Part shown: positions 12,201-17,471 of the stretch, in pieces
Layout: every line of letters begins with the position of its first letter
Position numbering within the stretch: position 1 is the stretch's first letter
NCBI RefSeq assembly: GCF_963676685.1
Contig: NC_092353.1
Coordinates: 34,782,001-34,846,000 of the forward strand
Length of the DNA: 64,000 bases
Origin: Mytilus edulis
Taxonomy: Eukaryota
Direction: 5' to 3'
Made by a program: the position numbers and the translations under genes
The notes under the pieces: generated by a model
What the model was told of the DNA's origin: nothing
Databases searched by the model: none
Seen by the model: the letters and a program-made list of their open reading frames with translations, nothing else

Positions 12201-15200
12201 ACAATGTGAATTTTTAAAGCAATTGTATTTCACTTTTGGCTTATGAGCAGCTGCTCTCGCCGTATGGCCTTACCTTGTTCGCAATTTGGACCTTTGAATC
12301 CATCTCGACATACACAGATACGTGATGCACCATCTGGTAAACACGTTGCACCACGTGGACAGGGGTTCATTATACATGGATCTATGGTGTTTTCACAGTT
12401 GTTTCCTTTAACAAAAACGTCTCGTTAACATATGTTCAAACCAAATTATCATTTAACTAAATTATGCATATAATATTTAAAAAGATCATTTAATGCTGTA
12501 GTGAACAAAATCATGACTTGAAATTGTAGAAAAATATCAAGACGAGCAAACGATTATGATATATCAGTTAAGATCAACATGGTGTCTATTTGATCAAAGG
12601 TTTATTTCCTGATGCAAGTGAAGTGTTATTATGAAGAAGGAATCCGATATGTTGTAAAAGAGGGGCGAAATATACCAAAGGGACAGTCAAACTCATAAAT
12701 CTAAAATTAATTGACAACGCCATGGCTAAAAAGGAAAAAGACAAACAGACAAATAATAGTACACAAGACATAGAAAACTAAAAACTAAGCAACACGAACC
12801 CAACCAAAAACTGGGGGTGATATCAGGTGCTCTGGAAGGGTAAGCAGATCCTGCTATACATATGTGGCACACGAAGTATTGCTCATTTATCATAAACCCG
12901 GCAAATAGTCTAATTATACAGGTCAAATTCGTGAAAAGAAAAGGGGGTTGTAGTTACGACATAAGGAATAAATATTTGTAATAAATACAGTAAATAGTAA
13001 ATAATCCATTGCGAAAAAATGTTTTCAAACATTAATTGCATTAAAGTTAAAGTATTGAAAACAAAGTATACGGATGACGACGTAGATTAAAGAAGCAATG
13101 GTTTGGTATAGATGTGTTTGAAATGCATGCTTTGCAGATTGTTTGCATCGTCACGTTTGTGTCTATATATCAACTCAACATCGGTTTGCTTGTTTTAGGT
13201 ATTGTAGTATTTCTATAAGATACCGTTGCTGGTATTTATTACCGAAATTGTTTTAGCCTTTAAGATTAGGTATGTTTTATAAATTTTATTGTTTACTACT
13301 CATATGTTAGCAAAGATTGAAATATGCCGTCATCGGTAATATTTATTTTGAAGAGTTTGTAAAAAATGTGATAATATCACAAAATAATAATCATACCTGT
13401 GAATCCAAAATTACAAAGACATATATATCCTCCAGATGACACATCTTGACAGGTACCATTCGCACAAGGATTTGACATACAAGCCAGATCAGCTGGAGTA
13501 AAATCTACAATCGCAGTTGTGTCTTCTATGTGTTCTATGGGTTCTGGTGAAGTGGACGTTTCAAATGTAGTTTCTTCTACTGGTATTTCAGTGGAATTTG
13601 AAACAATTCCATCCAAATATGATTCTGCAATCTCTGAAGCCTCTGAACCGTCATCGGTAGAATCGATTGTGTCGTCCAATTGTTCCAACAGCTTTCTGCT
13701 CTTAACAGGTTCTTCTGCCATGTTAAAAATATTTGAAGCCGGATTGACCTTTCTTATTCCAATGACTGGTGGGTTATTTAAACTACTTCGATCATCATTC
13801 GTCACCTTCAAATTATTACTTGTTTCTTCTGGTTCGTTATTATCGTCTAAATAAAAGGATTCAGCTGTCATCTTGGTTTTCTTTTTAATTCTCAAATCAT
13901 TGTTTTCGAACAGAGATACCGTTGGAAACTTGATAAACGATTTTACAGGCTGTTCTATTTCTACAGCGTTTTCCTCTTTCGGGTCTTTGAAGAGATCGTC
14001 AGTTTTAACATTTTCCTCGCTGATCTCTTCATTAGAATTATCTACTTCATCGTATTCTTCATAGGTTTTCTGACTATCTTCTTCTTCTTCAGAGGTTTTC
14101 TGACTATCGTCTTCTTCTTCAGAGGTTTTCTGACTATCTTCTTCTTCAGAGGTTTTCTGACTATCGTCTTCTTCTTCAGAGGTTTTTTGACTATCTTCTT
14201 CTTCATAGGTTTTCTGACTATCTTCTTCCTCTTCAGAGGTTTTCTGACTATCGTCTTCTTCTTCAGAGGTTTTCTGAATATCGTCGACTTCTTCAAAGGT
14301 TTTCTGAATATCGTCTTCTTTTTCAGATGTTTCCTGACTATCTTCTTCTTCTTCATAGGTTTTCTGACTATCTTCTTCTTCAGAGGTTTTCTGACTATTC
14401 TCTTCTTCAGAAGTTTTCTGACTATCTCCTTCTTCTTCATAGGTTTTCTGACTATCTTCTTCCTCTTCAGAGGGTTTCTGACTATCGTCTTCTTCTTCAG
14501 AGGTTTTCTGAATATCGTCGTCTTCTTCAAAGATTTTCTGAATATTGTCTACTTTTTCAGATGTTTCCTGACTATCGTCGTCTTCTTCGCGATTTTCGAT
14601 AACATCTTTGTCGTCATTAGTTTGGCGTACGTGTTTAACAGACGTCTGTTCAACGGGATCATTAGATTTTATAGTTTCTTGGTTAATTTTCTTCTCTATT
14701 GGAAGTTTAAAGAAATCTTTAACGTAAAGACTATCACCTTTCGTGTCCTCTTCTGAGTTAACAGATAAATGGTTTGCTTTCTTGTCTGATTTCTCCTCGG
14801 ATGTATCCTTGATTTCACTATTTTTCAAACTTTTCTGTTTTACTTTCAAAACCTCTGTAGTTGTCTTACTCTGTTGTGTATCGTCCTGGTGCTCAGATGG
14901 GACTCTACTTTCAATGTTTTCATTAATAACCGTTTTATCATTCAAATGTTTAGATGAAATTTCTTCAACCATTATGACTTTTGTTGCATGTTTAGAGGGA
15001 TTAATGTCGATGTCATCTTGATCAATATCTTCCTCTGTTGGAGTTTTAGAAGGAGTATTAACTTCTGTATTCAATCGAATAACATGATCCCGAGTTTCAT
15101 CTTTAGCTGATTGTTTGACCTCTTTAATTTCTTCACTACTGCTTTCCTCTGTTTCGTCTTTAAGAGGATGATTTGAGTCGATATGTTTTTGACTGGTATT

Positions 15201-17471: not shown

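What the first reader, a model, noticed from the sequence alone, without database searches (positions are those of the whole stretch)
13397..17471. Unusual architecture: ~1,330-aa acidic disordered N-terminus from one giant exon fused to EGF-EGF-cadherin repeats
Seen: a signal peptide, one 4.1-kb exon of D/E/S/K-rich low-complexity sequence, then EGF domains placed before the cadherin repeats. Established: in Fat, CELSR/Flamingo and invertebrate classical cadherins the EGF/LamG modules follow the cadherin repeats, and large single acidic exons are typical of mineral-matrix proteins such as SIBLING/SCPP. Inference: a chimera of an acidic matrix protein and an adhesion receptor. A KRKR dibasic site just before the 34-aa array could allow proteolytic release.
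Basis: partly seen in the sequence, partly recalled or inferred. Interest (0 to 1): 0.7.

Follow-up and report, generated by a model that had tools for sequence, protein, structure and literature searches.

The report
Giant mussel cadherin adhesion GPCR
The 4-kb acidic exon is the tip of a 4,270-residue mussel cell-surface receptor, an adhesion GPCR with 15 cadherin repeats that is not Flamingo/CELSR, has relatives across snails and bivalves, and likely senses pulling force, with the fast-evolving acidic tip likely acting as a charged shield over its adhesive rod.

Summary
The acidic exon splices to EGF and cadherin exons, and the gene runs 68 kb past the window's left edge: 59 coding exons, 4,270 aa. 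Order: signal peptide, 1,304-aa acidic region, 2 EGF, 15 cadherin repeats (five triplets), FN3, SEA, 2 Ig, HormR, GAIN/GPS, 7TM, tail. Overlapping spliced contigs link the exon's 3' end to the 7TM. It is an adhesion GPCR but not CELSR: no LamG, a different order, AU p about 0.01, and a separate CELSR-like locus exists. Relatives in bivalves and gastropods share the core and differ at the tip (mucin, Sushi, Ig repeats or nothing). EGF-before-cadherin is a family trait; the acidic tip was found only in Mytilus. No donor matrix gene was found, and KRKR is not conserved. An RxLL site is a better, still weak, release candidate. All 20 fetched paralogous GPS exons lack a GAIN disulfide reported in all human adhesion GPCRs. 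Seven literature searches found no description of the family. Verdict: new variant of a known kind; the role of the tip is untested.

The parts
17406..17471 (-). Start codon and predicted signal peptide (residues 1-22)
   Evidence: hydrophobic segment 1-25; same start in P0001 and P0023
13494..17405 (-). 1,304-aa Cys-free acidic low-complexity tip
   Evidence: 64% identical to M. californianus (636 of 999 aligned pairs)
16083..16094 (-). KRKR (residues 460-463), not conserved
   Evidence: present in G000 and P0023, KKQKK in P0001, not covered by P0024
15111..16034 (-). 34-aa array, 9 copies, each with SSSEE; a 19-aa unit in M. californianus
14055..14588 (-). 10-aa array (SQKTSEEEDD type), about 18 copies; one copy in M. 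californianus
13686..13697 (-). RKLL (residues 1259-1262), fits the site-1 protease motif; candidate release site
   Evidence: RxLL at the same place in 4 of 4 Mytilus sequences; motif from PMC12067269; local identity 123 of 177 makes conservation weak evidence
13397..13481 (-). EGF domain 1, in the same exon as the acidic tip; phase-1 donor at 13397
12274..12405 (-). Exon for EGF domain 2
   Evidence: the unlisted pieces of two contigs match its length
8774..9012 (-). Exon, cadherin repeat 1 (six-Cys type)
   Evidence: spliced contigs; fold
6600..6813 (-). Exon, cadherin repeats 1-2
6050..6168 (-). Exon, cadherin repeat 2
5356..5542 (-). Exon, cadherin repeats 2-3
2328..2474 (-). Exon, cadherin repeat 3
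1561..1805 (-). Exon, cadherin repeat 4
948..1137 (-). Exon, cadherin repeats 4-5; lies on the same contigs as the 7TM exons
   Evidence: 6,963-nt (X1) and 6,760-nt (X2) records
124..218 (-). Last exon in the window (cadherin repeat 5); 49 more coding exons follow over 68 kb to the left of the window (cadherins 5-15, FN3, SEA, 2 Ig, HormR, GAIN, 7TM, tail)

Best explanation
The exon encodes the outermost part of a 4,270-aa adhesion GPCR (acidic tip, 2 EGF, 15 cadherin repeats, FN3, SEA, 2 Ig, HormR, GAIN, 7TM) that likely works as a force-sensing adhesion receptor, with the acidic tip likely serving as a phosphorylated, removable charge shield over the EGF-cadherin rod. Shown: gene structure, splicing, domain order, family placement. 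Inferred, by analogy to other adhesion GPCRs: the chain would cut itself at the GPS (HT|TNFAVLM) and perhaps in SEA (G|SVIV). The cadherin rod would bind a partner cell or matrix; a pull would free the TNFAVLM tethered agonist and switch on G-protein signalling. Least certain: the tip, which takes the place of the mucin-like or empty tips of relatives, would be phosphorylated by Fam20C, bind Ca2+, keep partners off the rod, and be trimmed at RKLL by site-1 protease, like a very large cadherin prodomain. My odds: 0.95 for identity, about 0.7 for tethered-agonist signalling, about 0.4 for the shield role.
For: 59 exons join in frame and collinear with a RefSeq orthologue. The orthologue has Pfam 7tm_2 1e-53, cadherin 8e-44, GPS, SEA, Ig, HRM and EGF; its 7TM is identical at 257 of 258 positions; seven hydrophobic segments follow the GPS. 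Four overlapping spliced contigs from two runs link the exon's 3' end to the 7TM. The GPS keeps H-X-T, the Phe of C-x-F-W and the Gly named as cleavage determinants in PMC13062082. SEA reads GSVIV against the G|S[V/I]VV of PMC10687090. Identity falls from 99.6% (7TM) to 64% (tip), and the arrays differ in unit and number between species, which suits a bulk charge or length function. Relatives swap tips on one core. CELSRs also have poorly conserved prodomains with a convertase site ahead of the cadherins (PMC12038025). Fam20C acts in bivalve mantle (PMC5824888 abstract).
Against: No function was tested. The GAIN lacks the Gly-Cys disulfide found in all human receptors, and H-X-S/T alone does not ensure cleavage (PMC13062082). 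The SEA motif is one residue off and has no GS-type match at that place in 5 of 11 relatives. Ca-linker motifs are sparse: DxN[D/E] 5 times and LD[F/Y/R]E once in 15 repeats, so a stiff Ca-bound rod is uncertain. RxLL is known only from Mytilus, where three residues would survive by chance about one time in three. S-x-E excess is significant in G000 (43 vs 26.6) but inflated by repeats, and not significant in M. californianus (19 vs 14.4, p 0.10), which has no SSSEE. Two raw RNA runs showed no reads on the exon's 3' end.
Confidence: 0.6

Rival explanations
1. The tip is a mineral- or glue-matrix module: phosphorylated, released or tethered into shell or byssus matrix, so that the receptor reports contact with mineral.
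For: pI 4.4 and net charge -186. Nine SSSEE clusters, a casein-type phosphoserine motif (recalled; one search did not find it in the paper read). Fam20C knockdown disturbs nacre in pearl oyster. An ENPP-family gene lies head to head 1.4 kb away.
Against: Shelled relatives (Haliotis, Patella, Mya, Dreissena, Sinanodonta) have no acidic tip. SSSEE is absent in M. californianus and RGD is in 1 of 4 sequences. K+R at 13% makes it a polyampholyte, not a polyanion. No tissue data.
Confidence: 0.2
2. The tip is a permanent, uncleaved antenna or spacer, like the ~2,000-aa stalk of ADGRG4, that adds drag and reach for sensing flow.
For: ADGRG4 precedent (PMC10687090). An unrelated scallop and oyster adhesion GPCR has a Cys-free acidic region of 1,340-1,900 aa between folded domains, so such regions recur in bivalve receptors. 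KRKR is not conserved.
Against: Here the region is terminal and caps no folded domain. RxLL sits at a fixed 68 aa from the ADLAC/EGF1 start in 4 of 4 sequences.
Confidence: 0.25
3. The tip is a tolerated, near-neutral expansion of a signal-peptide-to-EGF linker by slippage; the receptor works the same without it.
For: Independent array units in two species, 9 vs 5 copies between two nearly identical sequences, a 75-aa indel, 64% identity against 88-99.6% for most other parts. Abalones and limpets lack any tip.
Against: More than 1,070 codons stay open and acidic in both species with a complete tip, and non-repeat stretches stay 69% identical.
Confidence: 0.15

Closest known systems
CELSR / Flamingo (ADGRC)
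   Same: Cadherin repeats, EGF, HormR, GAIN and 7TM in one chain; long tail; poorly conserved N-terminal pro-region (PMC12038025).
   Different: 15 cadherins in Cys-patterned triplets instead of 9; EGFs before the cadherins; FN3-SEA-Ig-Ig instead of Flamingo box and EGF/LamG; 7TM does not group with the one CELSR tested; a separate CELSR-like locus exists.
ADGRF1/ADGRF5 (GPR110/GPR116) and ADGRG6
   Same: SEA domain ahead of GAIN (PMC10687090); SEA plus Ig domains in ADGRF5 (recalled).
   Different: They have no cadherin rod. ADGRF1 scores lower (7e-47) than ADGRL3 (9e-69) and ADGRD1 (1e-57) against the orthologue.
ADGRG4 (GPR112)
   Same: Very long low-complexity extracellular region, SEA-HormR-GAIN, proposed force sensor.
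   Different: Its region is a S/T mucin stalk capped by a pentraxin domain; here it is acidic, terminal and followed by a cadherin rod.
Latrophilins (ADGRL) and unassigned invertebrate adhesion GPCR clusters
   Same: Best solved-structure match of HormR-GAIN-7TM is ADGRL3. Invertebrate receptors with EGF, Ig, LamG or FN3 and unassignable subfamilies are known (PMC6422961, PMC6900090).
   Different: No lectin or olfactomedin domain; the passages read mention no cadherin-bearing members outside CELSR.
SIBLING/SCPP and casein-type acidic phosphoproteins
   Same: Acidic, Cys-free, S-x-E-rich sequence from a large exon; SSSEE clusters in some Mytilus species.
   Different: No sequence relative found; fused to a receptor; more basic residues; RGD and SSSEE not conserved.

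Membership tests
Adhesion GPCR | Secretin-like 7TM | tested here: met
   Pfam 7tm_2 1e-53 on P0001; 257 of 258 identical in the G000 model; 7 hydrophobic segments
Adhesion GPCR | GAIN domain with GPS and Stachel directly before TM1 | tested here: met
   GPS 8e-11; HT|TNFAVLM; a Mytilus paralogue models at pLDDT 86 and matches the ADGRB3 HormR-GAIN structure, TMt 0.82
Adhesion GPCR | Large multidomain ectodomain on the same transcript as the 7TM | tested here: met
   overlapping spliced contigs; one RefSeq model; no single read spans it all
Adhesion GPCR | Autoproteolysis and G-protein coupling | not testable with these tools
   motifs only; the Gly-Cys disulfide is lost
CELSR/Flamingo | Nine cadherin repeats at the N-terminus | tested here: not met
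   15 repeats, preceded by EGFs; definition from PMC12038025
CELSR/Flamingo | Flamingo box and EGF/LamG module between cadherins and HormR | tested here: not met
   that span is filled by FN3, SEA and two Ig; LamG is found in the control P0152 but not in P0001
CELSR/Flamingo | GPS-7TM groups with CELSR | tested here: not met
   AU p 0.0135 (15 rows + CELSR) and 0.0101 (7 rows + CELSR); one Nematostella CELSR only, groups named after a first tree
ADGRF (GPR110/116) | SEA domain before GAIN | tested here: met
   SEA 2.5e-9
ADGRF (GPR110/116) | 7TM orthology to ADGRF | tested here: inconclusive
   ADGRF1 ranks below ADGRL3 and ADGRD1; no named vertebrate ADGRF was in the trees
Fat-like protocadherin (database label of fragment P0024) | Single transmembrane helix, EGF/LamG after the cadherins | tested here: not met
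   seven-pass, no LamG; P0024 is a model that stops after the last cadherin
SIBLING/SCPP | Free-standing secreted phosphoprotein | tested here: not met
   exon splices on to EGF and cadherin exons; a minor truncated isoform is not excluded
SIBLING/SCPP | S-x-E (Fam20C) clusters | tested here: inconclusive
   43 vs 26.6 expected in G000 (repeat-inflated); 19 vs 14.4, p 0.10 in P0001
SIBLING/SCPP | Conserved RGD (feature recalled) | tested here: not met
   1 of 4 sequences; absent in the 99%-identical P0023 and in P0001; P0024 does not cover the site
SIBLING/SCPP | Mineral binding and expression in mineralising tissue | not testable with these tools
   run tissues are not given

The most novel reading that the evidence does not exclude
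Molluscs built a second cadherin GPCR independently of CELSR, and mussels turned its tip into a phosphorylated matrix protein that is cut off at RKLL or left tethered, so that one gene both deposits an acidic mineral or glue modifier and senses load through a GAIN domain loosened by loss of its conserved disulfide: a shell or byssus mechanosensor.
Probability: 0.12. Interest if true: 0.85.

Novelty: new variant of a known kind. Interest (0 to 1): 0.55.

Why it matters
CELSRs are described as the unique cadherin-containing adhesion GPCR subfamily (PMC12038025). This is a second lineage with its own order of domains, present in bivalves and gastropods and hidden in databases under 'uncharacterized', 'Protocadherin Fat 4', 'latrophilin' or 'ADGRB1-like' labels. 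It gives a natural swap series (acidic, mucin, Sushi, Ig or no tip on one core) for testing what ectodomain tips do. It also gives a natural test of the GAIN Gly-Cys disulfide, which an expanded mussel clade has dropped while keeping H-X-T. If the tip proves to act in shell or byssus, it would be a candidate for the sensor that links load to mineral or glue secretion.

Tried and rejected
1. Stand-alone acidic protein as the main product: rejected, the exon is spliced onward in contigs of two runs; minor truncated isoforms are not excluded.
2. Two genes split by the 19-kb intron at the window edge: rejected, contigs of 6,963 and 6,760 nt hold exons on both sides; P0023 stops at that intron and is a split model.
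3. Captured matrix-gene exon: no second copy for residues 24-456 or the last 217 aa (35 and 46 candidates scored). Only 3 Mytilus proteins were found with region 1150-1358 (1 of 218 and 2 of 469 candidates); shorter proteins and the 5' part were not searched there. The ESM Atlas gave no usable hit, which shows nothing. No BLAST match to the scallop/oyster acidic regions (0 of 4).
4. KRKR: no R-x-[K/R]-R anywhere in the model; not conserved.
5. CELSR, Fat: rejected (see membership).
6. No run is on record as an RNA holder. Raw runs X21 and X24 had zero depth on the exon's 3' end; X22 and X23 had traces on 7TM exons. Tissues are unknown, so this says nothing on function.
7. The fold of cadherin repeats 3-5 was low confidence (pLDDT under 50 beyond residue 290) and was not used.
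8. Monophyly of the whole 15-row family: 0.97 in FastTree but not recovered by IQ-TREE; AU p 0.26 does not reject it.
9. Earlier scan findings: none by place or words.
10. No complex prediction was run; no binding is claimed.

Full report
OBSERVATION. The minus strand holds one open frame from ATG 17471 to a GT donor at 13397. After a hydrophobic start come 1,304 residues without Cys or Trp: D+E 27.5%, K+R 13.2%, S 12.3%, net charge -186, pI 4.4. Two arrays lie inside: 102 bp x 9.1 and 30 bp x 18.2. EGF1 closes the exon. Nine more window exons join GT-AG, in phase, into 1,881 aa without a stop.

THE GENE IS TWICE AS LONG. The window is G000:C10:34782001-34846000. To its left the minus strand goes on with cadherin, SEA, Ig, HormR, GAIN and 7TM exons. 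The only longer relative of the exon's 3' part (1 of 218 candidates) is Mytilus californianus LOC127725998, 4,036 aa (P0001), with Pfam 7tm_2 1e-53, cadherin 8e-44, Ig, GPS, SEA, EGF and HRM. It maps collinearly over 85 kb. A guided splice model gives 59 coding exons and 4,270 aa with one stop. Identity to P0001: tip 64% (636 of 999 pairs), EGF 82, cadherins 88, FN3 90, SEA 96, Ig 94, HormR 95, GAIN 95, 7TM 99.6, tail 95. FN3 is named from Pfam hits in relatives at that place; P0001 itself has none. A named M. galloprovincialis protein is 99% identical over the searched part, so the genome is probably of that species.

SPLICING. In run X2 a 1,429-nt record holds 13396-14050, then 133 unlisted nt (EGF2 exon: 132), then 8774-9010 and 6600-6813. 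A 1,059-nt X1 record runs from 8774-9011 to 1657-1805. Records of 6,760 nt (X2) and 6,963 nt (X1) hold exon 948-1137. Records of the same lengths and depths (16 and 15) hold the 7TM exons, with CT..AC joints.

CADHERIN ROD. Linker motifs give 15 repeats (residues 1404-2925) with Cys counts 6,0,2 / 6,0,2 / 4,0,2 / 4,0,2 / 4,0,2. Repeats three apart are more alike (mean Z 4.5, 30 pairs) than others (2.2, 75 pairs; permutation p 0.0002): five copies of a triplet. In a model of the orthologue's EGF1 to repeat 5 (11 rows), residues 1-290 are mostly confident; repeats 1-2 match cadherin structures (top Z 13.1, rmsd 5.6, 190 aligned). Classical Ca-linker motifs are sparse.

FAMILY. A search with SEA-7TM returned 22 long proteins among 5,067 candidates. 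Eleven (P0003-P0013: Argopecten, Sinanodonta, Dreissena, Mya, Mactra, 3 Haliotis, 2 Patella, Batillaria) align along the core at 33-46%; 10 of the 11 carry a Pfam cadherin entry, and Batillaria matches the rod by BLAST. Tips differ: S/T linker plus 2 EGF (Sinanodonta); Cys-rich repeats, Sushi and 1-2 EGF (Dreissena, Mya, Mactra); 274-aa mucin plus 3 EGF (Batillaria); nothing (5 abalone and limpet proteins); Argopecten is truncated. So 5 of 11 have EGF before cadherin, and 0 of 11 have an acidic tip. A whole-library search with the scallop core listed 150 proteins. Of 30 looked up, 23 were molluscan, 5 from other phyla and 2 unnamed. Of 28 long ones scanned, 5 had cadherins: 4 molluscan and Nematostella CELSR. 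Restriction to molluscs is therefore suggested, not shown.

NOT CELSR. CELSR has nine cadherins, a Flamingo box and EGF/LamG (PMC12038025, Introduction read whole). In GPS-7TM trees (149 of 170 rows kept by coverage; 44 chosen rows) CELSR lies far off. Forcing it with the family (p-AU 0.0135) or with the Mytilus-plus-scallop core (0.0101) is rejected; the family alone is not (0.26). Caveats: one CELSR, groups named after the first tree, weak deep branches. A separate locus on C1 matches the CELSR ninth-cadherin model (1e-23) and Nematostella CELSR (382 bits, against 57 for this gene).

GAIN. The GPS reads WSTVGA...CEYDHT|TNFAVLM. It keeps H-X-T, the Phe of C-x-F-W (my mapping of S10.49) and the Gly, but both partners of the Gly-Cys disulfide, which PMC13062082 (section 8 read) reports in all human GAIN domains, are replaced. 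Among 149 related rows, 134 keep both Cys; the 7 with Ala/Ser plus Tyr are the clade that holds all the named Mytilus members; 8 others differ or are gapped. The genome has at least 25 similar GPS exons, 7 of them within 0.83 Mb on C10. All 20 fetched lack both Cys; they were found with this exon as query, which biases the count. A paralogue with the same loss models as an intact HormR-GAIN-7TM (pLDDT 86), from an alignment in which most rows keep the Cys.

THE TIP. No second copy in the genome and no relative outside Mytilus for its 3' part. Signal peptide, tip and EGF1 share one exon, and relatives have S/T linkers there; I infer expansion in place. Arrays differ: 34-aa units (9 SSSEE in G000, 5 in P0023, 7 in the partial P0024) against 19-aa units without SSSEE in M. 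californianus; the 10-aa unit is counted 17, 14, 11 and 1 times. The P0023 difference may be assembly collapse. KRKR is not conserved. RxLL occurs once per tip, at the same place in 4 of 4 sequences (0.01-0.10 expected by shuffling) and fits the site-1 protease motif R-X-(L/I/V)-(L/K), best with LL (PMC12067269, passages); at 69% local identity its conservation is weak evidence. A distant scallop and oyster adhesion GPCR has its own acidic Cys-free region of 1,340-1,900 aa with no detectable similarity, so such regions arose at least twice on bivalve receptors.

MECHANISM. Shown: structure, splicing, domain order, placement. Inferred: self-cleavage at GPS and perhaps SEA, adhesion through the rod, Stachel release under load, and a phosphorylated tip that shields the rod until trimmed. 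Rivals are a matrix module (0.2), a permanent antenna (0.25) and a near-neutral expansion (0.15); they partly overlap with the main reading.

LITERATURE. Seven searches, one with six gene identifiers, found no description of this family in the open-access library; subscription journals are mostly not covered. Passages seen: PMC11682238, PMC13197933, PMC10687090, PMC6900090, PMC6422961, PMC2246102, PMC4595640; only reference-list hits in PMC12716839 and PMC9489211; nothing on SSSEE in PMC12292773; abstract only of PMC5824888. The Fam20C S-x-E/pS motif is from a search listing. Unassignable invertebrate subfamilies and shuffled ectodomains are already known, which tempers the surprise. I saw no figures or supplements; the domain figure of PMC6422961 and the sequence file of PMC6900090 could include a member.

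VERDICT. A real, expressed gene; an adhesion GPCR of an apparently undescribed cadherin-bearing molluscan group, with a Mytilus-specific acidic tip and a clade-wide GAIN change. New variant of a known kind; interest 0.55.

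Noticed in passing
window 18830-20821 (+): An ENPP-family nucleotide pyrophosphatase gene (Pfam Phosphodiest 1.5e-66) lies head to head with the receptor, start codons about 1.4 kb apart; a shared promoter is possible and untested.
   Followed up: partly
window 41417-63797 (-), continuing through L009-L018: A tandem paralogue matching M. trossulus P0002 (2 EGF, about 10 Ig repeats, shorter cadherin rod, same SEA-Ig-HormR-GAIN-7TM core) ends in the window; Ig exons run past 160 kb. 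Its M. californianus orthologue P0027 has the same longest-contig length as P0001.
   Followed up: partly
G000 C10:34.69-35.52 Mb; C3, C8 and others: At least 25 related GPS exons, in clusters; 20 of 20 fetched lack the Gly-Cys/CxC disulfide pair.
   Followed up: yes
proteins P0016-P0019 (scallops, oyster): An unrelated bivalve adhesion GPCR has a 1,340-1,900-aa acidic Cys-free region between two small Cys-containing domains that look lectin-like by eye, with a polybasic run before it in scallops.
   Followed up: partly
L001, about 2,400-6,600 bases left of the window (+ strand): Inside the 19-kb intron: ORFs that look like reverse transcriptase-RNase H and tyrosine recombinase of a DIRS-type retrotransposon (label recalled, no Pfam run).
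   Followed up: no
L006, about 2860-4030 (-): A 388-aa ORF resembling a MULE transposase (label recalled) in an intron after the last TM exons.
   Followed up: no
L006:5341-5468: One X2 contig (depth 6.5 against 8.7) skips this 127-nt exon of the last TM helices, which would shift the frame; the shorter side is only 29 letters, so weak.
   Followed up: no
window 9040-9153; L004 near 31,630-31,740 left of the window: Short local duplications of exon ends with their own splice-like sites; use in transcripts not seen.
   Followed up: no
window 17472-17900 (-): Two upstream ATGs in the 70 nt before the start, and a possible upstream exon ending at a GTAAGT donor near 17841; first exon unresolved.
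   Followed up: partly
window 18133-18718: A 53-bp tandem array, 11 copies, between the two genes.
   Followed up: no
proteins P0023, P0024: Database models of this gene are fragments labelled 'EGF-like domain-containing protein' and 'Protocadherin Fat 4'; they stop at the long intron and after the last cadherin.
   Followed up: yes
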